From Haliotis cracherodii (taxonomy: Eukaryota), in NCBI RefSeq assembly GCF_022045235.1, contig NW_027266265.1:34100001-34164000 (forward strand): a DNA stretch of 64,000 bases. The letters are read 5' to 3'. Position numbers and translations under genes: made by a program. The notes beneath the pieces are model-generated. The model searched no databases. It was not told the DNA's origin and saw only the letters and a program-made list of their open reading frames with translations. Shown here piece after piece: positions 6,198 through 33,953 of this stretch; position 1 is the stretch's first letter; each line of letters begins with the position of its first letter.

Positions 6198-7529
6198 CTA
6201 CTGACAAGTCATCTTGTTCATGTATCCAGGCATACAGCGGAGGGATGCACAGCATCTCATGGCACTGATGCCGTTAATCTTGCATTCGCCGTTACGGAGG
6301 CGACACTGTAAAATATAGAAGAATACATTTACACATCCACGTAAAATGTATCATATGCGTACACCAACAATAATATTGCCCTGAGTATCACAAATCATAT
6401 TTCGTGTGATAGGACAGGCATTAGCTGATAGTCAAATAATCATGTTTGAGAATATGAATTGGAAAGCCCATGAAATGATGCTTCTGAAAGAACTATGGTA
6501 ACTGCATTGTACATGTATGATATCAAGCATGTGCTGGTAATGCTCATTTCTTTTGACGTATGTTATGTAGGTGGAAACTACACATATAATAATTTGCATC
6601 CAATCACATGTAAAGAGAGTAATACATGTAGCATATTCCACCAATATTCTGTCCAGACCACTTGTTATCATTCAAAATCCTTGTTTAAAGGGAACATTTG
6701 TACAGTTACATTTACATGGATATAGTTCCGTGCTACATTTCCGAATTTCATGTCTTATCTCATGGCAGAAGTCAATGTCTGGCACGTTTACTTACCCCCA
6801 TACCGCCGCCAATACCGCCACCAATACCGCCGCCAATGTTCCTCTTGCATATTTGAATGTTACCCAGACCAGACTGACACGTCAAGCCATTGCAGCAGGT
6901 GTTACCATTCATCCAATTGCATGTTTGCCCCTCGTTCTGACACTGCATAAACAAAATGAAGTAAGTTATGCATTTGTAGTGTGTAATCCAACAATATGTC
7001 ACATTTGTTGCTACTATTTATAATTCAGCAACACTGTTAAACTATGGACATATAAACAGTGGTAGGATTAACATACTAATAATATTTTTCCTTTTACATT
7101 TCAGAAATAGTATCATTGCTACATTGTGATGCATGCCAATAATCAAATGGGCAAATGACTAAAGTAATGGCATTAATATACAGGGTGACACGATTGTAAA
7201 TAAACATTTGAATATGATTTATAACAGAACAAGGGATAGCTGGATCACGATATTAGACTATCTTATTTATGGACCATGGAGCATAAGACGTGATGTGGTA
7301 TATGACTTTCGGTTCCTTTTGTCTTTTAAAACATGTAGGAAATTTAAAAGAATCAACTGATTGCACAAGCAGATTTTGATCACATATATCCCCACGGAGA
7401 GATAGTATACATATATCATAAATGAAGATTAAATGATGTGACAGCACTTACTCCAAACCCTGCTGCAAAGAGATCTTGACCCAGTACTGATACCACAAAC
7501 AGCAAAGCAAGACTCACTTTGAACATCAT
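6198..7529 (-). CDS. Gene A: secreted double cystine-knot (ICK-like) peptide, 110 aa; coding exons 7529-7452, 6942-6796, 6305-6198
   Basis: Manual splice: MMFKVSLALLFVVSVLGQDLFAAGFG | CQNEGQTCNWMNGNTCCNGLTCQSGLGNIQICKRNIGGGIGGGIGGGMG | CRLRNGECKINGISAMRCCASLRCMPGYMNKMTCQ*. Canonical gtaag donors and yag acceptors, all phase 0; hydrophobic signal peptide; two C-C-CC-C-C motifs; same structure in four other intact paralogs. Confidence 0.9.
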
Positions 7530-8084
7530 TGTAATGATAGGGTACACCTGGAAGCAAACAGAAGGCGATACATTTGAAATCCTAATACTTCTGAACAATG
7601 CTCAGTACTTCATACGTAAAACGTTAGTATGGTGTGAACACAGAGGTACTTGTAGTAATTACACCATTTATGTTAAACGATACTGAAAAGCAATGTGAAG
7701 ATTCACAAAATATTATCCTCATGATGAATAGTAATGCTATATATTGAAACGGGATGTGGTTGTCCCAGTCGCCTTAGACGCCGCACTTGTGCAGAATTGC
7801 TTCTCTTAGCCGTGCAGAGTCGGATTATCGTCGCTTCAAAAATCACAGATTATGACTTGGTTTCAGTGCACCATGCCCGAGCCCTTCTTTTTCATCCAAG
7901 TTGTAAACGTCTGAAGCCTGCACCCCTGCGAGCTTTCCTTCACCATTAGGCTTGCCCGCCGTGAGAAAACTATTTTACTGTACAAAGCGCCGTAAAGTTC
8001 AACTCACTCGTTATGCATACATGTACATACCTGTTCAACTCTGAGATCGAATTGAGAATATACAGTGCCCAACAAGTACATGTA

Positions 8085-8090
8085 TTTATA
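8085..8090 (-). promoter_or_regulatory. TATA box of gene A, followed by a short non-coding first exon (donor at 8030)
   Basis: Minus strand reads gggTATAAAtac...gttgaacag|gtatgt; acceptor ttccag just upstream of the ATG; same layout in A' (23368-23373) and in B/B'. Confidence 0.65.
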
Positions 8091-8523
8091 CCCGTTGATA
8101 GAAAACATTTCCTGAACTGCATATACAGTTATACGCAGAAAATGTGTTGCATCTGATATCACCGATCAGTTGGAACAGTTAATGATCTGACGGCAACATG
8201 TGACGTTACTTTGATCAGCTGTAGATGCTGATATGTTATCAGGATTCACATGGAATGTGTAGCTGACGCTTCACTTTGCTTTGCTCTTTGGTCGAATCTG
8301 ATTGAATATTCACCAAATACATGTTCGTACATTCTTTTCTCATCTTCCGATTATTTTGCAAATGGTCTGTATTATATTTTTTTCAAAGTAATATAGTAAT
8401 ATACGTGTGTTCAAAACATAAAATCGACAAAAGCCATTCCATACGAATTTTCTGCCATATTATGAGTCGTCTAAACGATTCCGACTATGTCATGAGCATG
8501 TGTAAATGAAACGCAATCAAATA

Positions 8524-8697
8524 GTGAGTGAGTGAGTGAGTGAGTATGGTTTTACGCCGCTTTTAGTAATATTCCAGCAATATCAGGGCGGGGATCACCA
8601 GAAATGGGCTTCACACATTGTACTCATGTCGGAAATCGAACCCGGGTCTTCGGCGTGACGAGCGACCGCCTAAACCACTAGGCTACCCGATCGCCCC
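8524..8697 (-). mobile_element. tRNA-derived SINE (family 1), full length
   Basis: A box (tagcctagtggt), B box (ggttcgatt), (ACTC)n tail; TSD aatcaaatagtga; empty site in unit 2 at ~23840. Confidence 0.9.
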
Positions 8698-8719
8698 GAA
8701 TCAAATAGTGATGATACCA

Positions 8720-9985
8720 GGACTGGTGTTGGCGAAAAAGTTAGCCTCTTGTTGACTGAATCAATAGTCCCCAAATTCACGGAAGTATTCTCATCCTGAA
8801 TATTTTGAAGGTTCATCAGATGCCCGTATTTGACATCGATTGACTCTCACCCTCATTCTTAGGGTATCCTTGTCTGTCTGATGTATCTGATGCATCCAAA
8901 ACATTGTATGGCATAGATAAATTTTGGGGAAGTACAATTCATATTTTCACTGAAACAGAACGTTTTTCCGTCTTTGAATGTAAAAGAAATACATTGAACA
9001 ACATGAGGGAAAGTAATTAGGTCTGTTACACTTTTGTACTGTTTACATTATTGTTTTCCTCTTAAGAAAGAAGCCCTAGTAAGAATCCTTTCAAAACGAG
9101 TGCTCTGTCTTTTACCTTTAATAAGTTTATTTATTTGTTTCAGCTCTTTACACTTGTTTAAAGAAAACATTGTCTCCTGAGCATTTCAAAAAATTTCCGG
9201 CTTTGGGTTATTAAAGGTTGTAACAAAAGGGAGAAGACTCCCGTTTGGTATATCTTTCGCTTTAAGAAAATTACAACGGTTTTGTGATTTAGCCTTGTTT
9301 GTGGCATCTTCTACTATTTTTCCAGTGTAATTTTCTCTCTGAAAGGAAATACCTCAGTTCACTGAGTCAAAATCGCGCAGATTCTACGTGCTAATGAGTA
9401 AGGGACATTGCTGTTTGGAATGAGGGGGGTGCAAGGAATTGTAATTGCAGTATTATTTGGAATCGTTTTTTGTAATATACATCTGTGTCCTTATTGTTTG
9501 ATATTGTAACTATTACGTCCAAAAAAGAAATACTTTCATCGTTCATCTCTAAAGTAAAAGTAAAACTTGGATGGAGCGTCTGTAAAATATCTATTAAACA
9601 TTGTAAATCTTCTCCACTCTGATAACACAGAATAAAACAATCATCTAAAAATATTTTTGATTTGTTTTGAAATCACTGTCCAAATGCAAATTCATCAATT
9701 TTCTTTATATTACATGTTGAATTAACATCCAGGGTTGATTTGTGATGGGTATCATTCCAACTTTTAAAAACAATAATTGTGGTCACTGTGGTTGAAGGTC
9801 AGATATATATTTCAAGATCTACAAGAAAAGCTTGCTAAGAAATGTAAGTTCTCCTTGTATGAATCTTATCTCACATAAAAAGCTCTCAACAGATGCATCC
9901 TCTTTTGTTTGAAGCATCCTCAAAATGTATTCTTTTGGAGCTTTAAAATTAAACGGTGCCGGGTTTACTTCTTGTAAACGTACCA
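8720..9985 (-). mobile_element. Decayed Penelope-like retroelement (RT C-terminus plus GIY-YIG endonuclease)
   Basis: Manual translation: KIFLDDCFILCYQSGEDLQCLIDILQTLHPSFTFTLEMNDESISFLDV..DTDVYYKKT (9660-9465) and ENMNCTSPKFIYAIQCFGCIRYIRQT..LRMRV (8950-8840); many stops. Confidence 0.8.
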
Positions 9986-10163
9986 TAACACTAGTACTGC
10001 AGCTATCGTAGAGTTTTCACTACCAAATGCAAGATGTTTTGCATTGATATTGTTCCTCCTTATAAATCCACGTTTTAAACTCACTCACTCACTCTTCTAT
10101 ATTCTTATAGTGGACCAATGAAAACTTTTCGATATGGACGGTCGTGTATGTTTTAACTTTGCT

Positions 10164-10321
10164 GAGGCAGTCGGCTAGCCTCGTGGTTAAAGCGTCACGC
10201 CAGAAGACTCGGGTTCGATTCCCGACATAGGTACATTGTGTGAAACCCATTTCTACTGTCCCCCGCCGTGAAACTGCTGGAATATTGCTACAAGCGGCGT
10301 AAAACCATACTCACTCACTCA
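10164..10321 (+). mobile_element. tRNA-derived SINE (family 1)
   Basis: A/B boxes, ACTC tail, TSD ttttaactttgct; copy at the equivalent site in unit 2 (25280-25452). Confidence 0.85.
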
Positions 10322-10756
10322 TTTTAACTTTGCTAGCTAAAACTGCCAAATGTACTATAGATCATGCTGCTTTGGGGACATAAATGTCCCTGTATAAGCT
10401 AAATATCAACAGAAGAAAACAAATTGTAGTTTTGCAATCCAGTATAAGGCCGCTTATAAAATCTGAAAATATTTCCAACAGGTACATTCTGTGATGTCTT
10501 TTCAAATCGTTATGTATTCGCTCTGTTCCATTTAATTGCCTTGGCTGCCTTCCCCGTTCAGTGTATGACAGGAGTAAATGATCATATGTAAAGATAGCCA
10601 TTTGTGATGAAGATGATTTATCTGTGTAGGTAGGAATCTGATCCTATCGGAGGTTGTGACTGACAGACTGCCATTGGATGCAAGATAACATTTTGCACCA
10701 CCTGCTCTGCTAATTTATCATCCTTATCTTGCTTTGCGTAAGTGTGTAGTCTGTGG

Positions 10757-10764
10757 TATATATA
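10757..10764 (+). promoter_or_regulatory. TATA box of gene B; non-coding exon ends 10814, 5'UTR intron 10815-11118
   Basis: TATATATA, then ...ctgaacag|gtaaca; acceptor cttttcag 15 nt before the ATG; conserved in B' (TATAAA 25880-25885, exon end 25937). Confidence 0.6.
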
Positions 10765-11133
10765 TGTCAGCTAAGTCAAATAGGCATATCATTGCTGTTT
10801 GTCCGGCTGAACAGGTAACATTATATTTATTGTGAACTCGTTTACACAACAGTTTACAGTACTCCACAAAAATGCAAATCCTGTTTCACGGGAGAAGTAA
10901 TTTCCTATATATTTCCCAAGACTTGAGGTAATATGTTGTTTTTCACAAATGTTATAACATAATTAATCTACATGTCTTCAATGTACTTAATCTAGTATGA
11001 TTTCAACTTAGAATGTCTATGAAGGTTTATATATAGATTATGTGCTTGAAAAATAAACCCAATATAATTTGAATGTGTGACATTGCATCACAGATGACTT
11101 CAATGAATTTCTTTTCAGTTTCACTCAATCACA

Positions 11134-12737
11134 ATGATGCTGAAAGTTTGCGTTGGTCTAATTCTCGTAGCATCCGCTCTGATTCAAGATTCGCATGGAT
11201 TTGTAAGTCTCAAATAATTTCACACTGACTGTTTAATCCAGGAACAGATTAACCATTTATTCTTATTAGAATTCAATGTCTGAAACATCACTATCATACG
11301 AAATGTCGAGTAGGCTGGGTTGAAAGCCGCTGTGGAGAATATTGTAGTTATAGTGTATATTACAGCTTGTCTGCTAGTTGTGTGAGGAAAGTACGATTGC
11401 ATATCCAAGAAATATACCATTTCATTGAGAACCTACGTGCACGGGTATGGTGTTGATAAACAAAGAGTCATAATTTTCGGGGCGTATTTGGAATTCGAAC
11501 CCACGATCATAGGCTTTTGGCATGGCTAAGGGAATCAATTCTGGACAGCGATTTGCGGCTCCTTAACACAGGTTATGATTTGGGGCCATAATACAAGAGG
11601 TATTTTATTTTACAGTGCCAGACAGAGGGACAAACCTGCAATGTGATGAATGGTAAAACCTGCTGTAATGGCCTGATGTGTGAGTCTGGCATTGGAAACA
11701 CAAGAATATGCAAGAGAAGCGCCGGCAGTGGTGCTGGGGTAAGGGTATAACAAGAATCTAAAATTTAACCCAACCCGTAAGAAGCAAGTATTGTCTTTTA
11801 GGTGTTGAGAGAAAACCGAAATCCGTATAATGTCCCCAGTCTTACCTGAATTTTCATTGTACCAGTATAGTACATTCCTCCAGACTGTAACTTGAATTAT
11901 ATCTCTTCAGTAAAGGAAATGGAAATGACCAGTTGGCTGGGACATATAATGGTTGGAAATATGTGCAAAGGAACACATTCATTGGGATTTAAAGGAAAAC
12001 ACAACAATCCACGAAATGCGTTAACTTTGATTACAAAACAATTTTATTACAGACAAAGTAGATATGAGATAAGATCACATGTTAAGCAGATTTAAGGAGA
12101 AAGCCTTTAACACTACAAAGCAACTCAAACCATCTCTTCTTCAAATTGTAACCAGGCACAGTTCTTAATGTTTTGGTCATCATTGCATACACAATTAAAG
12201 GATGTAAATGTTCAGCATGTCTGAATTTTATATATGATATATAATGAGAAATGCTATGAAATAATGACTTGGTCCGCTGCACTATGTAATATTGAGGATA
12301 TAAAATGCAAATGGTATCGATATATACTGCTTTAAAATGAACCAGATTTGGTTACATTACTGTTTATATAGGTAGGTACACGATGTAAACAGAAATCGGA
12401 AAAAATAAATAAAATACAAACAACAATGTAAGTAATATTCTTTAAGAAATAAATAATGTGTGAATAATATGAAGAATTAAAACGTTTTCGTTACTTTCGT
12501 TAAATTTTCATTCACAAATCATTGTCTATATTTGATCTTATGTGTATGCATTGTTTTTTGTCAGCATAATGCCAATCATGCCAAATTGATATGATTAGTT
12601 TATAACACATTCATGTTTCTATTTGACAGTGTCGCCTCCGAAATGAAGAATGCAAAATAAATGGTATCGAAGCCATGAAATGCTGTGGTTCACTCCGCTG
12701 TATGCCTGGATACATGAACAAGATGATGTGTCAGTAG
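11134..12737 (+). CDS. Gene B: secreted double cystine-knot peptide, 99 aa; exons 11134-11202, 11616-11738, 12630-12737
   Basis: MMLKVCVGLILVASALIQDSHGF | CQTEGQTCNVMNGKTCCNGLMCESGIGNTRICKRSAGSGAG | CRLRNEECKINGIEAMKCCGSLRCMPGYMNKMMCQ*; canonical phase-0 splice sites. Confidence 0.9.
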
Positions 12738-14329
12738 TTGTCTTCTCATGCTTGATCCCGTATTGATTCTTGCATATTAATCGACTTAGTCATTTGATTT
12801 GTCATTTGATTGTATTCCGAATAAAACTTTCAAATATCAATGTGAACATATCTATGTGTTCTTTCGTCTATCTTTAGATTTATCTTAAACACATTCAGAA
12901 TGGAAATTAAAATGTCCATTTGCATTATGAGTTCTCTGAGCTCTGTGTACATACTGGTCAATGGTTGAGACATGTTAGTAGGGAACGTGTGCGTCGCAAC
13001 ACAAGGTAGCATGGGTGATTCTCAATATGGGTACATGATCTTGCAAATAATGTGAAGGTCCTGTCTCACTGTGTAAATGAAAACATGTTACTACTCGTAG
13101 CACTGACAAACTTAGAAACATAACCGGGGCGAACCCGGATTCAGATCACTGGTTTCTCGCATGACAAATGGATGCATCTCAGAAGACTGGTTATCGGCGC
13201 GTACACATGCTGTAGAAAATGTTGGTTCAAACGAGAAGATTCATGTATTACTGTGATCGAGTTTGCATTGCAGAGAAAGTAAGTATTGGTAGGTATACGA
13301 AGGTCTTGGTTGGTGGGGTCGGGTAGGGTGGGGTGGGTTGGGGTGGGGTGGGGTGGCAAAGGGTTGGGTTGGGTTGGTTAGGGTGGGGTTATGACTGAGG
13401 GAACTATAAAAGCAAGTCTGTAAGTAAGTTTGGTTTAACAACTTTTATCAGTATTTCGTTTAGCAATGACAATACCCAAGACAATGATTTATTACACGCA
13501 TTCTAATTCATAGTACATATGAAAGTGCAAACAGTTTGTATGTATAAAATGACCTGACAAACAAAAAGACTAATATTGTACAGATCGTAGTAATCATTTA
13601 AGAGACAAATTCTTGATCGCATAAAAGATCTAAGAACCCTGTTTTTTTAAAACGTGGCAATAAATATCACCGGTCAGAGGGTAGAAATACATAGTTACTC
13701 TTTGTTTATAATGGTCGGGGTCAGCTACAATTTATTAAGACATGCTTTTCGTGTAAATTATCTAAACTTTCAAATGGCACACCAGCTATTTTATCCGCTG
13801 CTAATCTGGTCTAGCGTGATTTGTTTGGAACAGAAAGAGTCCATACCAGCACTGAATGGGACACTTTCAACAAAACAACGATAAAAAGAGACAATACACT
13901 CTCGATAACTCTACGAAATCTTAATATAGGCATAAAATATAATGTTTGTTGATATTTCTTAAAATGGCATCTGTGTAGATATGTACGGGCGTGTCCGGTT
14001 TGTGTTGTAGAGAATCTTTAGTAATAATAATTGTTTTGGTTAAAAACGCGATCACTGGTATGGTGCTGACAAGAGTTGAAACATTATCTGGACTTTTCTG
14101 GTGTTCGAATCAAGAACAACGAAAGCAACATATTGTTAGACAATATAAAAACCAGTCAACAAAAGACAGCAATATAACTAGATTAATAGATTAGGTACAT
14201 AACAAGACATTATGAAAATAGGCAAATGATCACCAGCAGCCGACGTTAGGCCACAACACAAGGGCCGATGGTGGGCTTAAGATAACCCGGCTAACTACAC
14301 GGTGCCCCAGCACACCAGCCGTCTAAGTT

Positions 14330-14990
14330 ACAAATTAAACACTCCCAATAATATTAACTTAAACTTTCGACACAATTACGAATTTATCAAAATGCTCAAT
14401 TTCGTTTAAGAAACCAATAATTAAATGAGAAATAACTCTATTAAAAAGATCCTTAAGAGATGATGATTTGAAATAGTTATCCCTTGTGATAAACACAGTC
14501 AAGCAGAAAAGGCTTGACTGTGATTCGCTCATCACAAGAAATACAGAACGGATGATCCTCATCTTAGAACAATTATACATGTGAATAACGAGAATAGGCA
14601 ATGCGACATCGCCGTAACATATCCTCTTTAAATCTGGACTGACAGGAAATGTAACTTATAGTTGGTTTGATTTGATATAATTTATTTACACCCACTTGGG
14701 TGTCCCACTGCTTTTGCAGTAGATCTTTATTGTAACATCTAATTACAGGCTTAATATCATTGTATGGAATCAGTAGTGGTGGCCTAGTTTTGTTGAGTCC
14801 TGCTTTAGCTGCAGCTTGAGCCATTGGGTTACCAGTGATTTCAACATGGCTGTGTAACCAACAAAGATTATGTCGTATTGGCCAGTAGCAAGTTCATAAT
14901 GTTATTCCACAATTTCGTTTAAAAGTTGGTGTTTATTAATAGCCGTGAGGCACGAAAGAGAATCTGGCGGTTCAAATGTTTGTTTCTGCT
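14330..14990 (-). mobile_element. Duplicate of the I-clade LINE fragment
   Basis: Near-identical to 1560-2215. Confidence 0.75.
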
Positions 14991-16884
14991 GTGAAATTGG
15001 AACAGCTATCAGGTAACCTTGATGATAGAGTCCTGATTTCATTGACAGTGGCGGAAATCAACAGTAAATCTACATGTACATAATGTTAGCGGGACCGTAT
15101 ACTCGCAGATTTCGAAAGTGGGCATGCAGCCTCTTAAGGACTGTCAGATTTGTAAGCACTTTTAGTGCAAAAGAAATTGAACATTAAAAGTAAAACACAA
15201 GTGCTGTCGTGGACGGAGTTGAACCACAGTCAACATCAAGGAGTGGATCTTTCCAGAGTTTTTAAAAAAAAATAACTTGTCTTAGAATTATCTGACCTTG
15301 TGCACATGCACATGGTAGACTTGGTCGATCGAGAAGTGCGGGATGGGACTGTTTCTAGAAGGAGGCTGGATGTCCCTTACATGAGAAGTGGGCGATTGGA
15401 TGCCTTTTCGAGCGGACTTGAGTCATGTTTACATTTACTTGTAAAGTCGTGTCTGGACACCTTTTGTAAACACCGAATTCCCACTAGTCTCCAAAAGTAT
15501 TCTGGATTCAAGAACGAGGATTTGTTTCAAGAAATTCGACAATTGAAAATTCTGAACATTCGCCATTGTGCTAACATCAATCAAACGTTACTTGTTGCTT
15601 CTGTCTCCTATTGCATCCAGAGGCTTGACTTGTTTTATTGTAAACCTAAATCTGTGTGCTTCGAAATACTTGACTGATATTCATTGATCGTGTGTGCTCA
15701 TATACTGATTTGACAATTTATTTATGTAAGCGCTGATTTCTGGGTTAACCTTTGCGTTTAATTTTGGAATTCACGTCGAAGTAACATATATGCCCTCCTC
15801 GAAACATAGACATATACACGAGAGCTAAACGCTGCTCCACACTTCTGTTCATTTTTTGTAGTTTCGATTTTTAATGTAGCTCTTTGTAAAGGTAATGTTT
15901 TAATCGTCGTCATAGACAACAGTATAAGGATCTATTCCGAAACGTCGCCGTTACAGTAATTAAAGAAATTGTTGTCCATAAATTGTATCTACTTTGTCAT
16001 CCGTCAAATTCTAAGTAATGCCTAACAAACAATTTGAGCGCAGAATATTTTACAAAGTCTTTTCCCAGCTCCACAAATGTTAAGCTAAAAGAATTAGACC
16101 TATCGTCATGCAAACATTTGTAAAGTTTAATTACAGTTAATTGGCCTAAATAGGAACCATATATATATAGTGATGTCATGAGTTCATTTTCCTTACTATC
16201 ATATAAAGTGTATTAAGTAAATGACTCGGTTTTAGAAAAGGTGTTGATATATACTTATCTTCATATTATGAAGATGACATGCAATTAATGCTTTGTCATG
16301 CCTTTTATGAACTCGAGATTAGATCACTCACTCATGTCATCGGAAGATCGTCTGTGTATGTGTATTTGAATGTGTATTTATTTGTAATTGGGTTTGAGCA
16401 CAATACGTATTTGTTTTTTTAATTTTTTAACACCGCATTTAGCAATATTTCAGCTATATATTATATACTACCCAGCTGTATATTAGAGTTCCTGTCGAGC
16501 CCGTCACATTGATGGAATATTCCTGAGCGTGGAGCTAAACAACAAACGTAACAGTTTTTGCAATATGCAGGTCCTCATTTCGTTTCATTGCTTCGATTTT
16601 GGACCAGCGAAACAGTGAGAGAGAGAAAATGATTTTAGTAGTGATAGCCCTAACTGGCGTACCTAATTATCATAAATGATCGCGATAAGTTTGAATGAAA
16701 CCATATCGTGGTGACTGTCCGGAATCAGATAAGATATGTCACATGTGGCATGTTAATTGCTCCTCATCTTGGATTGTGTAACGTATGAATGGGCTGCTTC
16801 CAGTTAACGAAATACCGTCATTCCAGTTTCCTTCAGTTGATCAGGTGTCTGTATGTTTGTATGATGTATGAAGCTACAGAAATA

Positions 16885-17064
16885 CAGTAAACTACGGTTA
16901 TAACGAACACGCTTATAACGAACTGGAGGATATAACGAACTGGGTTTTAGGCCCCTGCCATTTGCTGTGTCTCTGCTGTACATATGCTTATAACGAATTA
17001 CGGTTATAACGTTACGAGCTAGAATTTATGGTCCCTTTGAGTTCGCTATAACCGTAGTTAACTG
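16885..17064. mobile_element. MITE (Tc1/mariner-pogo type), 180 bp
   Basis: TIRs cagtaaactacggttataacgaac / gttcgctataaccgtagttaactg; TA target duplication; absent at the equivalent site in unit 1 (~3750). Confidence 0.9.
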
Positions 17065-17386
17065 TATATATGCTCACCGCCATGTTTACATGTGAAGACT
17101 TACTCATATTCAAGAGATATTAGATTGGTTAAATGCACAAACGAATGTACTGGTATATTATGTGTATTGATGCTCATGAACTCATCACGTGTGACGTTAC
17201 AGATCCTTGACGCGAGAAGCACCATTTATCTCGAGTAGGATTGAAGTAATTTTGTAGATTTTTGTGAAACAGGATTAATGTAATTGTGTATTGGAAGTAA
17301 CATGACTCTTGACATCAGAACATGTAAAATATTATTCTGTATACGGGTTGGTTAGTTTATTGTCCGTATACTCCATCCCTACAATT

Positions 17387-17788
17387 ATGTTGAACGTGTG
17401 CGTTGCTGTAATCCTTATTGCTTCAGCTCTTGTTCAAGATGCGCATGGTTTTGTAAGTCAAACATCAATATATATTTACTGTAAAAAAATAATGAATTGT
17501 GTTTTCTTGTTGTTCATATACCCATGTGTGTATCCTTGGTTAATCTGTCAACACAGTGATTTCCATTTAGCGTTCTTCAAAGTGTGGTTCCAAAATATCC
17601 CCGATCATCAGTATGGAGTATGATTTTCCATATCATCGTCTGTGTGTATATTGCACATTATGTAATTTCACAGTGCCAGACAGAAGGGCAATGAACATAA
17701 ACGGTGTAACATGCTGTAATGGTCTCATGTGGGAGCCGGATACAGGAAACACAAGAATATGCAAGAGAAAGGTCAAGGTGGTATTTGG
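17387..17788 (+). pseudogene. Gene C: disabled B-like knottin paralog (exons 17387-17452, 17674-17788; no third exon found)
   Basis: Signal exon MLNVCVAVILIASALVQDAHGF|gtaag is intact. Exon 2 reads CQTEGQ then TGA after a small deletion; the shifted frame continues NGVTCCNGLMWEPDTGNTRICKR, with Cys5 changed to Trp. Confidence 0.8.
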
Positions 17789-18180
17789 GTAAGCGAAAAA
17801 CAATAATACTAGTACTGCCAACAATAAACACCCATAGAATCACGAGGGTACTGCTTTTCAAGGGCACTGGAAATGTGAAATTTTGATGCTACCGTAGTAT
17901 TGTAAATATTGACATAAACGTTATCGGATATATATACATGCGACTGATAAATGTCCTTTTTTTATTTCTTTAGCTACAAGTTCAGGATATGATGAGGAAG
18001 ATAACTATGGCTAAAAGCAAAAAGACAGTGATGATTTATCATACTTCACAAGAAAAATCTAACTGTGAGCAAGGTCGTAATCCAAAATACTTTCTTTTCA
18101 GTTTGGAGTGAGTGAATTAAAAGTCACCTTGGCAATATGTTAGCCATAGTGTCACTAGCACATGTATTCAGTAATAATAT

Positions 18181-21436: not shown

Positions 21437-22816
21437 CTACTGACAAGTCATCCTGTTCATGTATCCAGGCATACAGCGGAGGGATGCACAACATCTCATG
21501 GCACCTATGCCGTTAATCTTGCATTCGTCGTTACGGAGGCGACACTGTAAAATATGGACGAATGCATTTACACATCCAAATGAAATTATCATCTGCGTAC
21601 ATCAATAGCAATATTGCACCGAGTATTACAAAACATATTTTGTGTGATACGACAGGCATAAGCATATAGTCAAAATAATCATGTTTAAGAATATGAATTG
21701 GAAAGCCCATGAAACGATGCTTCTGAAAGAACTCTATTGTAACTGCATTGTACATGTATGCTGTCGAGCATGTAATGGCAATGCTAATTTCTTTGGACAT
21801 ATGTTATGTAGGTGGAAATGGCACATGAATTATACTAATTTGCAACCAATCACATGTAAAGAGAGTAATACATGTAAAATATTCCACCAATATTCTTTCA
21901 GTCCGGACCACTTGTCATCATTCAAAATCCTTGTTTAAAGGGAACATTTGTAAAGTTACATTTACACGGATATAGTACAGTGCTACATTTCCTAATTTAA
22001 TATTTTATCCCATGGCAGTAGTCGATGTCTGGCACGTTAACTTACCCCCATACCGCCGCCAATACCGCCACCAATACCGCCGCCAATGTTCCTCTTGCAT
22101 ATATTAATGTTACCCAAACCCGACTGACACGTCAAGCCATTGCAGCAGGTGTTACCATTCATCCAATTGCATGTTTGTCCCTCGTTCTGACACTGCATGA
22201 ACAAAATGAAGCAGGTTTTGCATTTGTATCGTGTAACCCAACAATATGTTACATTTGTTGCTATTATTTAGAATTCAGCAACACTGTTTATCTATGGACA
22301 TATAAAACAGTGGTAGGATAAACATGCCAATAATATTTCTCCTTTTACATTTAAAGAAAAATACAGTAAAACATGGGGCATATTCATGCAGAATTAGAAT
22401 CATTGCCGTATTGTGATGCATGCCAATAATCACATTGGCAAATGACTAAAGTAATGGCATTAATATACAGGGGGACACGATTGTAAATAAACATTTGAAA
22501 ATGATTTATAACAGAACAAGGGATGGCTGGATCACGATATTAGACTATATAGTTTATGGACCATGGAGCATAAGACTTGATGTGGTATATGATTTTCGGT
22601 TCCTTTTGTCTTTTAAAACATGAAGGAAATTTAAAAGAATCAACTGATTGCAAATGCAGCTTTTGATCACATATTTCCCCACAGAGAGATAGTATACATG
22701 TATCATAAATCAAGATTAAGTGATATGACAGCACTTACTCCAAACCCTGCCGCAAAGAGATCTTGACCCAGTAGTGATACCACAAACAGCAAAGCAAGAC
22801 ACACTTTGAACATCAT
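21437..22816 (-). CDS. Gene A': double cystine-knot peptide, 110 aa; exons 22816-22739, 22192-22046, 21544-21437
   Basis: MMFKVCLALLFVVSLLGQDLFAAGFG | CQNEGQTCNWMNGNTCCNGLTCQSGLGNINICKRNIGGGIGGGIGGGMG | CRLRNDECKINGIGAMRCCASLRCMPGYMNRMTCQ*; intact splice sites. Confidence 0.9.
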
Positions 22817-23859
22817 TGTAATGATAGGGTACACCTGGAAGCAAACAGAAGGTGATGCATTTGAAATCCTAATACTTCTGAACAATGCTCAGTACTTCAT
22901 ATGTACAACTTTAGTATTGTGTGAACACAGATGTACTTGTAGTAATGACACCATTATGTTAAACAATACTGAAACACAATGTGAAAATTCATAAAATATT
23001 ATCCTCATGATGAATAGTAATGATATATATTGGAACTAAGTATGGTTGTTTCTGTCGTCTGAGACGCCGCAATTGTGCAGAGTTGCTTCTCTTAGCCATG
23101 CAAAATATGTTTATCGTGACTTCAAATCACAGATTATGATTTGGTTTCTTAGCACCATGCCCGTGCCCTTGGTTTTCATCAAAGTTGTTAATGTCTAAAG
23201 CCTGCATCCCTGCGAGCTTTCTTTCACGATTAAGCTGACACGCTGTAATAAAACTAGTTTACTGTTCCTAGAGCCGTGAAGTTCAACTCACTCGTTATGC
23301 ATACCTGTACATACCTGTTCAACTGTAAGATCGAATGGAGAATATACAGTGCCTAGCATTACATGTATTTATACCCGTTGATCGATAATATTTCCTGAAC
23401 TGCATATTCAATAATACGCAGAAAATGTGTTGCATTTAATATCACAAATCTGTTGGAACAGTTAATGATCTGACGGCGATCTGACATGTGACGTTACTTT
23501 GATCAGCTGTAGATGCTGATATGTTATCAAGATTCACATGGCATGTGTTGTTGATGCTTCATTGTGCTTGAAGAGTGGTAAAGGAATAACAAAAAATGAG
23601 GGTGTGTTTTGCTCTTTGGTCGAATCTGATTGAATATTCACCACGTACATGTTTGTACAGTATTATCCTCATCTTCCGATTATTTTGCAAGTGGTCTGTG
23701 TTATATTTTTTTCAATATACGTGTGTTCAAAATTTAAAATCGACAAAAGCCTTTCCATGTTCATGAGACTTATCTGCCAAAATATGAGTCGACTTTACGA
23801 TTCCGACTATATCGTGAGCATGTGTTAATGAAACGCTGTCAAATAGTGATGATAGCAGG

Positions 23860-25115
23860 TGTTGGCGAAAAGGTAAGCGTATCCTGTCCCACAAGTGGCA
23901 CCAGTCACAGAGTTATGCCTCTTGTTGACTGAATCAATAGTCCCTACAATCACGGCAGTATTCTCATCCTGAATATTCTGAAGTTTCATCAGATGCCCAT
24001 ATTTGTCGTCGATGGACTCTCCCTCTCATTCTGTCCAATGATTTTGGCTTCGCATACGACACATTGTATGGCATAGATCAATTTTGGGGAAGTACAAATC
24101 ATATTTACACTGAAACAGAACGTTTTTCCGTCTTTGAATGTAAAAGAAATACATTGAACAACATGAGGGTAAGTAATTAGGTCTGTAACACTATTGTACT
24201 GTTTTACATTATTGTTTTCCTCGTAAGAAAGAAGCCTAGTAAGAATCCTTTCAAGACGACTGCTCTGTTTTTTACCTTTAATAAGTTTATTTATTTGTTT
24301 CAGTTCTTTACACTTGTTTAACGAAAACAGTGTCTCCCAAACATTTCAAAATATTTCCGGATTGGGGGATTAAAAAGGTTGTAACAAAAGGGAGAATACT
24401 CCCGTTTTGAATATCTTACTCTTTAAGAAGATCACAACGGTTTTGTGATTTAGCCTTGTTTGTGGCATCTTCTACTATTGTCCAGTGTAGTTTCTTTCTG
24501 AAAGGAATTACCCCAGTTTATTGAGTCTATATTGCGCAGATTCTACGTGTTGATGAGTAAGGGACACTAAATGAGAAGGTGAAAGGAATTGCAGTATTGT
24601 TTGGAATTGGTTGGTCTGTAATGTGCATCTCTGTCAATCTTATTGTTTGATATTGTAACTATTACATCAAGAAAAGAAAGACTTTCATCGTTCATCTCTG
24701 AAGTAAAAGTAAAACACTGTAAATCTTCTCCATTCTGATTGCACCGAAAAACACAATCATCTAAAACTATTTTCCATTTGTTATGAAATCACTGTCCAAA
24801 TGCAAATTCATCAGTTTCTTTTTAGATTACATCCATGGTTGATTTGTGATGGGTATCGTTCCAACTTTTAAAAACAATAATTGTGGTCACTATGGTTGAA
24901 GGTCAGATATATTTCAAAATCACGCTTTTAACGTTTGTGTAATGTCTACAAGAAAAGCTTGCTGGGAAATGTAAGTTCTCCTTGCATGAATTTAATCCCT
25001 CACATTAAAAGCTCTCAAAAGATGCATCCTCTTTTGTTTGAAGCATGCTCAAAATGTATTCTATTGGAGCTTTAAAATTAAACGGTGTCGGGTTTACTTC
25101 TTGGGAACGTACCAT
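23860..25115 (-). mobile_element. Duplicate of the decayed Penelope-like element
   Basis: Colinear with 8720-9985, with additional deletions. Confidence 0.75.
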
Positions 25116-25279
25116 ACCACTAGTACTGTAGCTATCGGAGAGTTTTCACTACCAAATGCAAGATGCTTTGCATTGATATTGTTCCATCCACGTTTTAAAC
25201 TCACTCACTCTTCTATATTCCTATAGTGGACTTAAGAATACTTTTCGATATTGACGTTCGTGTTTGTTTTAACTTTGCT

Positions 25280-25452
25280 GGGGCGGTTGGCTTGCCTCGT
25301 GGTAAAAAACGTTCGATCGTCACGCCAAAAGACTCGGGTTCGATTCCCGACATGTCTACAATGTGTGAAACGTATTTCGAGTGTCCCCCTGCCGTGATAT
25401 TGCTGGAACATTGCTAAAAGTGGCGTAAAACCATACTCATTCACTCACTCAC
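25280..25452 (+). mobile_element. tRNA-derived SINE (family 1), duplicated copy
   Basis: Same insertion site as 10164-10321. Confidence 0.85.
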
Positions 25453-26272
25453 TTTAACTGTGCTAGCTAAAACTTCCAAATTTACTATAGATCATGCTGC
25501 TTTGGGTACTTAAATGTCCCTGTCTACACTAAATATCAACAGAAGAAAACAAATTGTAGTTTTGCAATCCAGTATAAACCCGCTTGTAAAATCTAAAAAT
25601 ATTTCCAGCAGGTACATTCTGTGATGTCTTTTCAAATCGTTATGTATTCGCTCTGTTCCATTTAATTGTCCTTGCTCGTTAAGAGCATGACAGATGTAAA
25701 TGATCACATTTAAAGATAACTATTTGTAATGAAGATTATTTATCTGTGTAGGTAGGAATCAGATCCTATCGGAGGTTGTGACTGACAGACTGACATCGGA
25801 TCCAAGATAACAATTGCAACACCTGCTCTGCTAATTTATCATCCTTATCTTGCTTTGCGTAAGTTTGGAGTCTCAGTGGTATAAATATGTCAGCTAAGTC
25901 AAAAAGGCATCTCATTCAAATTTGCCCGGCTGAACAGGTAACATTATATTTATTAATGTGAAACACAACTCGTTAACACAACAGTTTTAAGTGCTCCACC
26001 AAAATGGATAGGTTAAGTCATTTGCTATATATTTCCCAAGACTTGAGGTAATATGTTGTTTTTCACAAATGTTATGACAGTCTTAATCTACATTAACAGT
26101 ATGATTTAAACTTAGTCTGCTTATGAAGGTTTATGTATAGATTATGTGTTTGAAAATTAAACCCAATATAATTTGTGTGGGTGTGATGTTGTTTATTTTA
26201 TGAACGGTTGGATAGTTTACATTCCATCACAAATGACTTCAATGAATTTCTTTCCAGTTTTACTCAATCACA

Positions 26273-28175
26273 ATGATGCTGAAAGTGTGCGTTGCTCTAA
26301 TCTTCGTAGCATCCGCTCTGATTCAAGATTCGCATGGATTTGTAAGTCTCAAATAATATCAAACTGACTGTTAAGTCCAGCGACAGTTTAAACATTTATT
26401 CTTATTAAATTTCAATGTCTGAAACATCACTATCATACGTAATGTCGATAAGGATGGGTTTAAAGCCGCTTGGAGAATATTGTAGTTACAGTGTATATTA
26501 CAGCTTGTCTGCTTGATGTGTGAGGAGGGTACGACTGCATATCCAAGAAATATACCTTTTTTGAGAACCTACGTGCACTGGGAAGGTGTTAATAAAGAAG
26601 GAGTCATAACTGTCGGGGCGTATCTGGAATTGAACCCACTATCATGGTTTCTGGCATGTATAAAGAACTCAATTCTGCACAGCGATTTGCGGCTTGTTAC
26701 ATAGCAGGACCATGCCTGACCCTTGCTTTTCATTAGCAAGTAATGAAATGTTTTGTTCGATAGAGCTTTCCATAATCGTGTTTACAATTTATTTTTTGCT
26801 TTCGGAATACATTGCGTTTATTTTTTCTCTGATTTTAAGATGGGCATCACTTAAATATTATCATATGACGTCTATGTTAAAGGCTAATACATATTGATAC
26901 GACATACATATGTATGGTTTGGGGCCATAATATAAGAGGTATTCTATTTTACAGTGCCAGACAGAAGGACAAACCTGCAATGTGATGAATGGTAAAACAT
27001 GCTGTAATGGCCTGATGTGTGAGTCTGGCATAGGAAACACAAGAATATGCAAGAGAAGTGCCGGCAGTGGTGCTGGGGTAAGTGAATAACAAGAATCTAA
27101 AGATTACAATTTAACCCAACCCGTAAGAAGCAAGTATTGTCTTTTAGGTGCTGGGAGAAACCCGAAATCCGTATATTATCCCCAGTCTTACCTGAATGTT
27201 CATTGTACCAGTATGGTACATTCTGCCAGACTGTAACTTGAATTATATCATATCTCAGTCAGTAAAGATATGGAAGGACATGGAAATGACCTGTTGGTTT
27301 GGACATATAATGGTAGAAGCTCTGTATAAAGTAAAATGTTAAGTTTTGATTTAAAGGATGCCTAAACCTTGATTACAAAACAAATTTATTACAGACAAAG
27401 TAGATATTTAATAAGATCACATTTTAAGCAAATATAAAGAGAAAGCCTTAAACACTACAAAGCAACTCAAGCCATCTCTTCTTCAAATTGTAACCAGGCA
27501 CAGTTCTTAATGTTTTGGTCATCATTGCATACACAATTAAAGGATGTAAGTGTTCAGCATGTCTGAATTTTATACATAATATATAATGAGAAATAACATG
27601 AAATAATGACTTGGTCCGCTGCATTATGTAATATTGAGGATATAAAACTCAAATAGTATCAATAGACATGGTATATACTGCTTTAAAATGAAACAGATAT
27701 CGCTTTGTTACATGTACTGTTTATATCGTTACATGTATGTACACGATGTATACAGAAATGGGACAAAAATACTTTAAAAAACACAAAAAAAACACTGTGG
27801 AAAGCGTTTTGAATACTTTAGTTTAATTTTCATTCAAAAGTGATTGTCCATTTTTGAACTGTACATGCATTCCTATTTGTCAACATTATGCCAATTGCAG
27901 CCTCCCCCCCCCCCCCCCCCCCCCCCCCCACACACCCTATCCTCCGCACCACTTAGCAAGCAAAGAACTGAATTTGATATGAATAGTTTGTAACACATTC
28001 ATCATGTTTCTATTTGACAGCGTCGTCTTCATGTGGATGTGTAAATGTATTCGTCTGTATTTTACAGTGTCGCCTCCGTAACGACGAATGCAAAATTAAT
28101 GGCATCGATGCCATGAAATGCTGTGGCTCACTCCGCTGTATGCCTGGATACATGAACAAGATGATGTGTCAGTAG
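26273..28175 (+). CDS. Gene B': double cystine-knot peptide, 99 aa; exons 26273-26341, 26955-27077, 28068-28175
   Basis: MMLKVCVALIFVASALIQDSHGF | CQTEGQTCNVMNGKTCCNGLMCESGIGNTRICKRSAGSGAG | CRLRNDECKINGIDAMKCCGSLRCMPGYMNKMMCQ*; AATAAA at 28229-28234. Confidence 0.88.
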
Positions 28176-29090: not shown

Positions 29091-29513
29091 TTATAGATGA
29101 CAGTCACAACAGAGATCAAATGCCCGGAAGACAGCCATGCCCGAACACAAAATATTGTGCTTGTCAGCGAAACACTTCATTTCAATATCCCCACAGTACA
29201 TACACGTGTAGTGCGCCGAATGAGGCACTGAGTCCATCTTTGTTGACGGCGCCGCTTTGAAACAGGTCCTACACAGCACTGTTTCCACTAGTCGCTGTAG
29301 ATTGGGATGAAGAGGCGGAGGATGAGGCTGCCGTTGAGGTAGTTGTGGAGACAGTTGTTCAGGTAGTTGCGGGGTTGGTTGTGGTGGTTGAAGGGGGTTT
29401 GACGGTGTCGGTGTTGGCGTCGAGACTGACAAAGGTTGAATCCCGTGAAGAGCGTCCATCAAACTCGAGTCCATTAGGGATGAGGGTGAAGATGAAACGT
29501 CCATGAAGTCCAT
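29091..29513 (-). CDS. Intronless ~140-aa ORF, Ser/Pro/Gln-rich N-terminus plus Cys/His-rich putative zinc-binding C-terminus; origin unknown
   Basis: ORF track 29091-29585; likely start MDFM at 29513 with TATATAAA ~35 nt upstream; CRTC..H..CMYC..C..H..C..CCDC; GC-richer than flanks and not a tandem repeat. Confidence 0.45.
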   Translation of the reverse strand: MDFMDVSSSPSSLMDSSLMDALHGIQPLSVSTPTPTPSNPLQPPQPTPQLPEQLSPQLPQRQPHPPPLHPNLQRLVETVLCRTCFKAAPSTKMDSVPHSAHYTCMYCGDIEMKCFADKHNILCSGMAVFRAFDLCCDCHL

Positions 29514-31822: not shown

Positions 31823-33953
31823 TTACTGACACACCAGCTGGTAATATTGGTTGTAAACGCACATCATGTTATTACAGCATCTCATCTCCTGGGCTCCTGT
31901 CTTCCAGCACTCTTGACCATATGATCGACACTGAATTATACAAGGATATGTCATGAGGAAACCAAATTATGCTATGTTATTACTGATATTTTTTTATTTT
32001 ATTTTTACAACATTTATAATGCAATAAATGAAATAACTTTTTTGCAAGAATGAAACCCTCGAATTTACGTATATGCATTATTTCATAATTCAAGAACTGC
32101 GAGTAGATTTCATATAAATATCCACAAATGTGTAACATCAGGTAACGCATTTTAGAAATAAAGAGTGATTAAGTTGAATATATTTATTTCTCATCTATGT
32201 AATTTCAAACTTCAAATATCCTTTCTCCTCACATACGTCGCGAACTACAACATTGAGTCTTTTTCATACCAGTTTAAAGGGCGGTTACAAATGTCAACCT
32301 TATGTCATAATCCTTAGCACATCTGGTTAAAGGAAACAAGGATGTTATTATTTTAAAATGCGTAATCTAATATCATTCAGTTAGCTTACACACTACTGTT
32401 ACCTCAATACTTCTATATAGACTTATCATATTTGTAGCAATGAAATTATTATCTGCAAAAAGGAGCTATTCTTGACAACCAGCCCGATGTCCTACCATAT
32501 TGTTTCCTCCATTCATGTTTCTCTGACATGTGCGAATGTTTCCGACTGAAGCCTGACAGGAGAATCCTGTGCAGCAACTTCTAGTTCCTGCCAAGTTGCA
32601 AGTCTGACCTTGATTCAGACACTAAAATGGTAAAGACATGTACAGTATGAAAATACTTATCGTCGATCAAATGATATTGCATTAACATCAATATGAAGTA
32701 TTATTGAATTATCGAGATAACCGTTATCAACAGTATAAGACAAGTCTGTAGATTTTGCGAAGTAACAGTTTAGTTGTATGTTTTAGTGTACCACCAAGTG
32801 GTACACTTTCATTTCAATGCAAATGTAAACGGTATCTTTTAAACTTGGCAAATCTATTTAAGGAAACGCCGATGCTACATATTGCTTCAACTAAACATTC
32901 TTTCAATAGGCTTACACGCCATTGTTAATCCTATGGTTAGATTTTGACTTTTTATCATTATTAATGGCAAGATCGTTATGTTCAAGTGGGTTGGACAACC
33001 AGTGAGAGGTCTTACCAGACTTCCTCCATTGATGTTTCTCTGACATGTTCGCATGTTCCCCATAGAATTCTGACAGGAGAAACCTGTACAACAACTTCTA
33101 CCACCAGCCAAGTTGCAAGTTTGACCTTGATTCAGACACTGAAATGATATGTTTTATTAACGTTCTTCGTTCTAAACATATGAGTGAGTTTAAAGTCACA
33201 TCGGCACTTTGTCAGCCATATTGGTACAAGAACAATGTATATATCAATAATAAATAAATTTAGACAACATAAAATCCTGTCCCCTTTTGGAGTCTTGGTT
33301 CAAACAGGTCTAGGCCACCAATACTGGTTATAAGAGGAAACCAAATGAATCAAATGGTAGGACTCGGTTACTTGGTTGAGGTTGAGTGACTTTTATCTGT
33401 CAGTGACTGGTCCAGATTCCATTATCGTATTGTAGCTGGAATTCTGCTGTATGCCGCGTTTATTGGCTAACAACAGCAACATTTCAAGGTTGGAAAAAGG
33501 AATTTTGCTTACCGTATTCGACGTAATAAGCGCCCCGCTCAAATAAGCGCCGATGGCGATATTTGCTAATATACTGGCTAGTGAACAATCCAGATTAGCA
33601 CCCCTTCCGATTGATCAATGTACACAAGACTTATATATTCTTGTATATTACGTGTGTTATATACATCCTTAATTATAGGAAATAAAATTCTGGAAAAATA
33701 TATCTGTTGTATATAAACATTTCAGGCTGTCAGCATAAACCACGAAATTTACGATCTTTCAACTCTGTTGTTTTTCACCAAATAAAATTCTGATCAGAGC
33801 CCCATATTTCTCAGTTTGAGAGCGCCCAGGGCGCTTATTATGTCGAATACGGTAAAAACAAATTGAATTACTTACGAATCCCATGCCGTTGCCATTTTGA
33901 GCAAAGGTTGACCCCACGAGGGCTGCGAGGGTAACACAGACAAATGCATACAT
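31823..33953 (-). CDS. Gene D: secreted triple cystine-knot peptide, 144 aa; exons 33953-33876, 33138-33016, 32621-32496, 31930-31823
   Basis: MYAFVCVTLAALVGSTFAQNGNGMGF | CLNQGQTCNLAGGRSCCTGFSCQNSMGNMRTCQRNINGGSL | CLNQGQTCNLAGTRSCCTGFSCQASVGNIRTCQRNMNGGNNM | CRSYGQECWKTGAQEMRCCNNMMCVYNQYYQLVCQ*; all phase 0; AATAAA at 31793-31788. Confidence 0.88.
33512..33852. mobile_element. MITE in intron 1 of gene D
   Basis: TIRs ccgtattcgacgtaataagcgccc / gggcgcttattatgtcgaatacgg, flanked by TA. Confidence 0.85.

What the first reader, a model, noticed from the sequence alone, without database searches (positions are those of the whole stretch)
6198..33953. Hidden cluster of secreted double- and triple-cystine-knot (ICK/knottin-like) peptide genes
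Seen: five intact spliced genes (A, B, A', B', D) and one pseudogene, none recoverable as a complete gene from the ORF track. Each encodes a signal peptide plus 2 or 3 modules, C-x6-C-x7-CC-x4-C-x9-C (first type) or C-x6-C-x9-CC-x4-C-x9-C (terminal type), joined by Gly-rich linkers. Known: C-C-CC-C-C is the inhibitor-cystine-knot framework of conotoxin framework VI/VII and spider knottins. Tandem bivalent knots such as DkTx and Hi1a are rare and gain avidity for ion channels. Inference: this is an expanding family of multivalent knottins in an apparently molluscan genome, for defence, antimicrobial, mucus/shell-matrix or gamete function. I do not recognise the sequences as a named family.
Basis: partly seen in the sequence, partly recalled or inferred. 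Interest (0 to 1): 0.92.

Follow-up and report, generated by a model that had tools for sequence, protein, structure and literature searches.

The report
Abalone cluster of chained knottin genes
An abalone chromosome carries a cluster of spliced genes for small, likely secreted proteins built from two, three or (next door) about eighteen six-cysteine modules predicted to fold as cystine knots, a design known mainly from spider venoms, here likely serving as a grip on microbes or surface polymers in a non-venomous grazer.

Summary
Five intact genes (A, B, A', B', D) and one pseudogene lie at the stated coordinates. Each has one signal exon and one six-Cys module per exon, and all introns are GT-AG, phase 0. 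Contigs of related organisms carry the predicted A, B and D junctions. D equals a RefSeq Haliotis cracherodii protein auto-named 'egg protein CP422-like', so the cluster is only partly hidden. It continues about 63 kb upstream: 14 loci, 12 intact-looking, including one gene with 19 knot exons (one dead). An AlphaFold2 model of one module (pLDDT 84) matches solved inhibitor cystine knots over its whole length (TM 0.71-0.77); the disulfides are not shown. The distant knot-bearing hits are all double-knot proteins of limpet and sacoglossan slugs. Knot exons are under purifying selection (dN/dS 0-0.22), with no pro-region and a phase-0 first intron, unlike conotoxins and mussel CRP-I. Best reading: an uncharacterised gastropod family of tandem knottins that bind a fixed, repetitive target by avidity, most likely in surface or gut defence (0.4). 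An ion-channel toxin is unlikely (0.1). Tissue and activity are unknown.

The parts
7452..7529 (-). Gene A exon 1: ATG and signal-peptide-like segment, 26 aa, phase-0 donor
   Evidence: junction to 6942 seen in contigs of X1 and X3 (one letter differs) and as exact loose ends in X1, X3, X6
6796..6942 (-). Gene A exon 2: internal knot module plus 17-aa Gly-rich linker
   Evidence: junction 6305/6796 in X6 and X3; AF2 model and fold search of this module
6198..6305 (-). Gene A exon 3: terminal knot module and stop
11134..11202 (+). Gene B exon 1: signal-like segment, 23 aa; head-to-head with A, ATGs 3.6 kb apart
   Evidence: junction 11202/11616 in X1, X2, X3
11616..11738 (+). Gene B exon 2: internal knot module plus 9-aa linker
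   Evidence: junction 11738/12630 in all 4 runs laid
12630..12737 (+). Gene B exon 3: terminal knot module and stop
17387..17788 (+). B-type pseudogene: signal exon 17387-17452 and a broken knot exon 17674-17788 (frameshift, stop, lost Cys); no terminal exon found
21437..22816 (-). Gene A': exons 22816-22739, 22192-22046, 21544-21437; two knots, 110 aa
26273..28175 (+). Gene B': exons 26273-26341, 26955-27077, 28068-28175; two knots, 99 aa; head-to-head with A'
31823..33953 (-). Gene D: exons 33953-33876, 33138-33016, 32621-32496, 31930-31823; three knots, 144 aa; equals RefSeq XP_071087194.1
   Evidence: all three junctions in single contigs of X1 and X3
4244..26694 (.). Segmental duplication carrying the A/B pair: 4244-11560 versus 19638-26694 at 82% identity; 5536-15441 also matches an upstream unit at 92%

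Best explanation
These genes encode likely secreted proteins made of two or three six-cysteine modules predicted to fold as inhibitor cystine knots, which likely stay linked and grip a fixed, repetitive target such as a microbial surface or polysaccharide by avidity, most likely as protective agents of mucus, gut or blood. SHOWN: gene structure, one module per symmetric phase-0 exon, spliced forms in contigs of relatives, tandem expansion as head-to-head A/B pairs, module number from 2 to 19 exons, purifying selection. PREDICTED: secretion (hydrophobicity only) and ICK fold. INFERRED: exon duplication sets valency; gene duplication raises dose rather than diversity; the flexible Gly linker lets neighbouring knots bind adjacent sites; the target is conserved and the role defensive.
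For: Structure and splicing. Fold: single-module AF2 pLDDT 83.7 with a C-terminal hairpin; the top Foldseek rows are ICK peptides matched over the full length, TM 0.71-0.77, rmsd 2.1-2.3 A, probability 0.97; the double-module model ranks DkTx, xibalbin-3 and Hi1a first. Fixed target: dN/dS per exon 0.00-0.22 within and between A and B, D1-D2 0.13; D differs from its H. rufescens orthologue at 3 of 144 residues, and A's knots match H. asinina P0003 at 28/34 and 27/35. Linked modules: the dibasic pair after Cys6 in A and B is QR or ER in D, E and H. asinina P0001 and absent in limpet; seven consecutive identical knot regions, within a longer run of near-identical ones, in gene F fit a bead chain on a repeating ligand. 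Defence: mature parts of the 11 database proteins are basic, pI 8.3-9.2, and terminal A/B knots carry net +3 to +5; the best solved-structure match for D is the chitin-binding antimicrobial knottin tachystatin B, E 0.006. All distant knot-bearing hits come from non-venomous algal feeders (diet from general knowledge).
Against: No tissue, proteomic or activity data. No fold or family match is formally significant: Foldseek E>0.2 for the single module, Pfam scores of window modules are all below cut-off, and the double-module model has pLDDT 55. A and B knots have only 0-1 aromatic residue, which is poor for chitin binding of the tachystatin kind (recalled). Gene F modules are neutral to acidic, so one cationic-antimicrobial role cannot cover the family. 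Mussel CRP-I peptides with the same array showed no antimicrobial, antifungal, insecticidal or cytotoxic activity and a non-knotted topology. Near-identity among copies could partly reflect recent duplication or gene conversion. The runs are RNA only by the tool's guess, and contig depth cannot give expression level.
Confidence: 0.4

Rival explanations
1. Multi-headed enzyme inhibitors or protectors: each knot blocks a protease, amylase or oxidase, own or microbial, in gut or mucus.
For: Knottin trypsin and amylase inhibitors and sponge asteropsins appear among the fold and profile matches. A conserved enzyme target would explain low dN/dS, and multiple copies would supply stoichiometric dose.
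Against: These matches are no better than those to toxins. No inhibitory-loop motif was identified. A run of identical heads in gene F is more than an enzyme inhibitor needs.
Confidence: 0.2
2. Structural cross-linkers of an extracellular matrix (chitinous radula or gut lining, pedal mucus, shell matrix, egg coat), with knots as repeated binding units.
For: Gene F has 18 intact-looking Tyr/Asn/Gln-rich modules and an acidic tail, and D's last knot has 5 aromatic residues. The RefSeq name points to a secreted schistosome egg protein.
Against: The CP422/UPF0506 match is below cut-off (15.7 versus 23.2 bits). There was no chitin- or cellulose-binding-module hit for D3 or F modules. The limpet pedal-mucus paper gave no match in the passages read or its two supplements (a different Patella species).
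Confidence: 0.2
3. Bivalent ion-channel ligands like DkTx or Hi1a, secreted in mucus to deter predators such as sea stars or crabs.
For: The same tandem-ICK design and flexible linkers of similar length (9-17 aa versus 12 in DkTx). DkTx, xibalbin-3 and Hi1a rank first in the fold search, and xibalbin-3 is the best profile hit, E 8e-5.
Against: Abalone has no known venom system (general knowledge). Purifying rather than positive selection. Few aromatic residues for a membrane-binding face. The resemblance rests on the Cys scaffold.
Confidence: 0.1
4. Polyproteins: the precursor is cut at the basic residues after each knot and releases single knottins, so the tandem design serves co-production, not avidity.
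For: A and B have Lys-Arg right after Cys6. This was proposed for multi-MgCRP-I. Knot 1 and knot 2 are only about 27% identical.
Against: The site is not dibasic in D, E, P0001 or the limpet proteins. It abuts a disulfide-bonded Cys, which is unfavourable for convertases (recalled). The long Gly linker is retained across the gastropod hits.
Confidence: 0.2
5. Endogenous signalling or pheromone-like ligands for the animal's own receptors (neural, reproductive or settlement cues).
For: Strong conservation between abalone species. Colipase/prokineticin/Dickkopf folds appear at lower ranks.
Against: Twelve intact-looking copies and an 18-module member are unusual for a hormone. There are no amidation or neuropeptide-type cleavage patterns.
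Confidence: 0.08

Closest known systems
Tandem double-ICK venom peptides DkTx, Hi1a and xibalbin-3 Xt3a (SCREP class; PMC6262176, PMC9950431)
   Same: Secreted, two ICK-type domains joined by a linker; top fold and profile matches.
   Different: Those are arthropod venom toxins with two domains and linkers of 4-12 aa. Here the host is a non-venomous mollusc, there are 2, 3 or about 18 domains and 9-17-aa Gly linkers in the window genes. No significant pairwise sequence identity.
Mussel MgCRP-I and multi-MgCRP-I (PMC4558851)
   Same: Molluscan, secreted, C-C-CC-C-C array, multigene family with pseudogenes, precursors with 2-4 modules, function unknown.
   Different: CRP-I has a pro-region with a dibasic site, a last loop of 3-5 residues, all modules in one exon, phase-1 and phase-2 introns, 2-4-aa spacers and positive selection. 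Here there is no pro-region in A, B or D, the last loop is 9, there is one exon per module, all introns are phase 0, and selection is purifying.
Framework VI/VII conotoxins and Vexillum vexitoxins (10.1101/2022.01.15.476460)
   Same: Gastropod ICK-type array; some vexitoxins are predicted to have two ICK-like domains.
   Different: Those are venom-gland products with pre-pro-mature layout and a phase-1 first-intron bias. No conotoxin was hit at E<=0.001.
Tachystatin B (horseshoe crab chitin-binding antimicrobial ICK)
   Same: The first four Cys spacings align without gaps; best solved-structure hit for D, E 0.006; non-venom role.
   Different: Single domain and aromatic-rich; Pfam score 22.2 bits is under the cut-off of 25.
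Schistosoma egg protein CP422 / UPF0506 (PF11703)
   Same: Source of the RefSeq name of gene D; small secreted Cys-rich protein, itself uncharacterised.
   Different: The Pfam score is far below cut-off and the family is from flatworms; the name is an automatic best hit.

Membership tests
Inhibitor cystine knot (knottin) | Six-Cys framework C-C-CC-C-C in 30-40 residues | tested here: met
   11 of 11 window modules; six Cys invariant in 27 aligned modules
Inhibitor cystine knot (knottin) | C-terminal beta-hairpin and overall ICK fold | tested here: met
   By prediction only: AF2 pLDDT 83.7, strands 20-24 and 30-34; full-length matches to ICK structures at TM 0.71-0.77, none at E<=0.001. Only the internal module type was modelled alone.
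Inhibitor cystine knot (knottin) | Disulfides 1-4, 2-5, 3-6 with one threading the ring | not testable with these tools
   The tools return no bond list; MgCRP-I is a counterexample for the same array
SCREP (secreted cysteine-rich repeat protein) | Signal peptide | tested here: inconclusive
   Hydrophobic core KD11 2.75-3.10 in all five first exons; no signal-peptide predictor available
SCREP (secreted cysteine-rich repeat protein) | 20-500 aa, at least 4 Cys, self-aligning repeated domains | tested here: met
   99-144 aa with 12-18 knot Cys; D1 versus D2 about 87% identical; A and B knots align by Cys but only about 27%; gene F would exceed 500 aa
Bivalent ion-channel toxins (DkTx, Hi1a, Xt3a) | Venom-gland expression and avidity-enhanced channel activity | not testable with these tools
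   No tissue or activity data
Conotoxin framework VI/VII | Signal-propeptide-mature layout | tested here: not met
   The first knot Cys follows the 23-26-aa first exon directly in A, B and D
Conotoxin framework VI/VII | Phase-1 first intron (bias reported in 10.1101/2025.09.26.678268) | tested here: not met
   All coding introns are phase 0
Conotoxin framework VI/VII | Hypervariable mature region under positive selection | tested here: not met
   dN/dS 0.00-0.22 for A, B and D1-D2; 0.36 for the near-saturated D3 versus A/B comparison
Mussel CRP-I | Spacing C(3-6)C(1-7)CC(3-4)C(3-5)C and conserved pre-pro region with KR/RR | tested here: not met
   Last loop 9, no pro-region
Mussel CRP-I | All modules in one exon; phase-1 and phase-2 introns | tested here: not met
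   One module per exon, phase 0
UPF0506 / CP422 | Pfam PF11703 above gathering score | tested here: not met
   15.7 versus 23.2 bits
Pfam Toxin_7 (Ptu1-type) | PF05980 above gathering score | tested here: inconclusive
   Window modules reach at most 25.3 and D 20.2, versus 27; H. asinina P0001 passes at 29.1 summed over two stretches
Tachystatin B | PF11478 above gathering score; chitin binding | tested here: not met
   Best 22.2 versus 25 bits; binding untested

The most novel reading that the evidence does not exclude
An ancient, gastropod-wide, non-venom family of modular knottins in which one knot equals one symmetric exon, so valency is tuned by exon duplication from 2 to about 18. The neighbouring gene F would be a natural poly-knottin far longer than the two-domain ICK peptides in the papers read here. 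The family would show that chained cystine knots arose in grazing snails outside venom, and would be a candidate gene pool to test against the ICK toxins of cone snails and their kin (that last link has no support here, about 0.1).
Probability: 0.35. Interest if true: 0.8.

Novelty: new variant of a known kind. Interest (0 to 1): 0.6.

Why it matters
In the papers read, the characterised tandem ICK peptides are two-domain arthropod venom toxins valued for avidity (PMC9950431). A 2015 survey placed the C-C-CC-C-C array in molluscs only in mussels and Conoidea and reported it absent from three other gastropod genomes (PMC4558851, section 20). A conserved family in abalone, limpet and sacoglossans, with a natural series of 2, 3 and about 18 knots, widens that picture. 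It gives a direct test of what valency does for a knottin outside venom. It may also name an overlooked defence or matrix component of a farmed and threatened mollusc group.

Full report
OBSERVATION. Six are internal (spacing 6, 7, 0, 4, 9) and five terminal (6, 9, 0, 4, 9). Every one starts on the first codon after an AG acceptor. In 100 dinucleotide shuffles the strict pattern never appeared, and the 36 loose matches never followed AG. Exon by exon, five genes are intact: A (minus; 7529-7452, 6942-6796, 6305-6198; 110 aa), B (plus; 11134-11202, 11616-11738, 12630-12737; 99 aa), A' (minus; 22816-22739, 22192-22046, 21544-21437), B' (plus; 26273-26341, 26955-27077, 28068-28175) and D (minus; 33953-33876, 33138-33016, 32621-32496, 31930-31823; 144 aa). 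All introns are GT-AG and phase 0, and first exons have a hydrophobic core. A polyA signal follows each stop. A B-type pseudogene at 17387-17788 is broken in its knot exon and lacks a terminal exon; a Tc1-like transposase lies just behind it.

SPLICING. A run search with gene A listed 12 runs, 9 holding a small share of its words, from 3 studies; none is on record as RNA. Laying four of them on A and B showed joints at 6305/6796 (2 of 4 runs), 11202/11616 (3 of 4) and 11738/12630 (4 of 4). The A first junction appeared with one differing letter in 2 of 4 runs and as exact loose ends in 3 of 4. For D, single contigs in X1 and X3 cross all three junctions, X2 shows one plus a variant of another, and X10 does not cover the knot exons. 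These are contigs of related organisms, cannot tell paralogues apart, and give neither tissue nor level. Gene D equals RefSeq XP_071087194.1 of Haliotis cracherodii, named 'egg protein CP422-like', at all 144 residues; its H. rufescens orthologue differs at 3.

THE CLUSTER IS LARGER. The window is G000:C2:34100001-34164000. Neighbouring stretches show 14 loci over about 97 kb (C2:34,037,000-34,134,000), 12 intact-looking and 2 broken. There are five head-to-head A/B pairs in total. One upstream A copy has two internal exons and would make three knots, like H. asinina P0001 and P0002; one upstream B copy is frameshifted. Farther up, gene E (equal to RefSeq XP_071090831.1, two knots) faces gene F head to head. 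F has a signal-like first exon and 19 knot exons on the minus strand (34053358 to 34037061), all after AG and phase 0. Exon 5 carries a stop and lacks a donor, so F would give 18 knots if that exon is skipped, or a short five-knot form. Seven consecutive knot regions are identical and spaced about 1.05-1.09 kb apart, and the last exon adds an acidic tail. F's splicing was not tested. No further knot exons lie in 187 kb upstream or 130 kb downstream. Searches with five queries found no second locus, and five weak hits that were fetched held no knot pattern. Duplicated units are 82-95% identical, so most copies are true paralogues.

RELATIVES. Word-based searches returned only Haliotis asinina 'uncharacterized' proteins. 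A full HMMER scan of 1.84 billion representatives with P0001 gave 8 hits at E<=0.001: four Haliotis, one fish phosphatase that I drop as false, and three double-knot proteins from Plakobranchus ocellatus, Elysia marginata and Patella caerulea at E about 2e-5. A profile search added a second Patella protein four locus tags away. These share the signal, two knots, a Gly-rich linker and a single residue after the last Cys. That the distant knot hits are all gastropods, while arthropod and flatworm double knots did not pass, favours homology. The module tree could not confirm it, and their gene structure was not examined.

FOLD. Pfam gave only sub-threshold scores for window modules: Toxin_7 up to 25.3 of 27, Tachystatin_B 22.2 of 25, UPF0506 15.7 of 23.2; P0001 passes Toxin_7. 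AlphaFold2 of a double-knot homologue was poor (pLDDT 55.5), yet Foldseek ranked DkTx twice, xibalbin-3 and Hi1a first, none at E<=0.001. A model of A's first knot from 27 aligned modules reached pLDDT 83.7 with a C-terminal hairpin. Its best matches are spider ICK toxins over all 37 residues (TM 0.71-0.77, rmsd 2.1-2.3 A, probability 0.97), followed by sponge asteropsins, tachystatin B and plant inhibitors, none at E<=0.001. By sequence, D's best solved match is tachystatin B (E 0.006) and the double-knot profile's is xibalbin-3 (E 8e-5). I put the ICK fold at about 0.85. The caution is real: synthetic mussel CRP-I peptides with the same array folded 1-2, 3-4, 5-6.

EVOLUTION AND CHEMISTRY. 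Nei-Gojobori estimates per exon gave dN/dS of 0.07 and 0.22 (A-A), 0.00 and 0.10 (B-B), 0.13 and 0.13 (A-B), 0.13 (D1-D2), and 0.36 for the near-saturated D3 comparison (the pairs are not independent). This is the reverse of conotoxin and CRP-I evolution. Terminal A/B knots are basic (+3 to +5) and Met-rich, A/B knots have 0-1 aromatic residue, D's last knot has 5, and F's repeated knots have 3 with net charge -2. The Lys-Arg after Cys6 in A and B is not kept in D, E, P0001 or limpet.

HOW IT LIKELY WORKS. Shown: a cassette of one knot per symmetric exon, duplicated within genes to change module number and as paired genes to change copy number, kept under purifying selection. Predicted: secretion and ICK fold. 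Inferred: the knots stay tethered and bind neighbouring sites on a fixed repetitive target, and extra copies raise dose. The role I rank first is protection at mucus, gut or blood interfaces against microbes or fouling organisms (0.4). Rivals are enzyme inhibition (0.2), matrix cross-linking, most plausible for F (0.2), anti-predator channel toxin (0.1) and endogenous signal (0.08). Separately, cleavage into single knots has about 0.2. Members may differ in role.

KNOWN SYSTEMS. The design is that of SCREPs (PMC6262176, passages) and of the double-ICK toxins DkTx, Hi1a and Xt3a (PMC9950431, passages). The closest molluscan parallel is multi-MgCRP-I (PMC4558851; abstract, sections 16, 20, 21 and passages), which fails membership on spacing, pro-region, exon layout and intron phase. 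That paper reported the array in molluscs only from mussels and Conoidea; two-domain ICK-like vexitoxins were predicted later (10.1101/2022.01.15.476460, passages). Conotoxin genes favour a phase-1 first intron (10.1101/2025.09.26.678268, passages). CP422 is itself called uncharacterised (PMC10547495, passages). A review of aquatic antimicrobial peptides named no abalone knottin in the passages shown (PMC11767717). The limpet mucus paper (PMC7333891, passages and two supplements) and the Plakobranchus genome paper (PMC8079154, supplements 1-12 of 32) gave no match. Ten searches of the open library found no description of this family. Subscription papers, most supplements, bioRxiv supplements and ScrepYard were not searchable, so prior listing in a table is possible.

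VERDICT. A real, spliced, partly auto-annotated but uncharacterised family: a new variant of a known kind. The features that raise interest are the non-venom setting, the exon-per-knot design, the reach across gastropods and the 19-exon neighbour. Interest 0.6.

Noticed in passing
G000:C2:34054205-34036700 (L001, L025, L024), minus strand, upstream of the window: Gene F: signal-like exon plus 19 knot exons, one dead, with a run of identical modules at about 1.09-kb period and an acidic tail; the most striking member of the family. Splicing and annotation were not checked.
   Followed up: partly
L001:6772-8761 (+): Gene E, a divergent double knot equal to RefSeq XP_071090831.1, head-to-head with F about 2.6 kb away; with the five A/B pairs this suggests shared bidirectional promoters.
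   Followed up: partly
G000:C2:34073892-34099983 (L003-L005): Six more A/B loci in two oppositely oriented blocks; one A copy with two internal knot exons, one B copy frameshifted.
   Followed up: partly
window 18589-19414 (-): Tc1/mariner-like transposase remnant (HTH and DDE hits) just behind the pseudogene; it may have displaced the terminal exon.
   Followed up: partly
window about 46200-43165 (-): An intron-containing gene with no Pfam match whose last exon resembles hypothetical proteins of Planctomycetota and Verrucomicrobiota (Atlas 0.94, recognition below threshold). Possible old horizontal transfer; a lead only.
   Followed up: partly
window 1-3731 versus 12752-16874: 98% identical duplicated segment with a 368-base interruption; a recent tandem copy or an uncollapsed haplotype.
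   Followed up: no
window 33510-33855, intron 1 of D: A very high-copy interspersed element with joints on opposite strands in contigs, possibly MITE-like.
   Followed up: no
window 8529-8700, 10166-10321, 25280-25451, 62372-62543: Copies of a roughly 170-base high-copy element ending in a tetranucleotide run, SINE-like.
   Followed up: no
window 47745-49275, 49811-50222, 53763-55292, 60682-61770: Minisatellite arrays of 34, 34, 53 and 45 bases; they account for the long Cys/His-rich ORFs there, which look non-coding.
   Followed up: no
window 38041-38325: A 285-base run of N outside the cluster.
   Followed up: no
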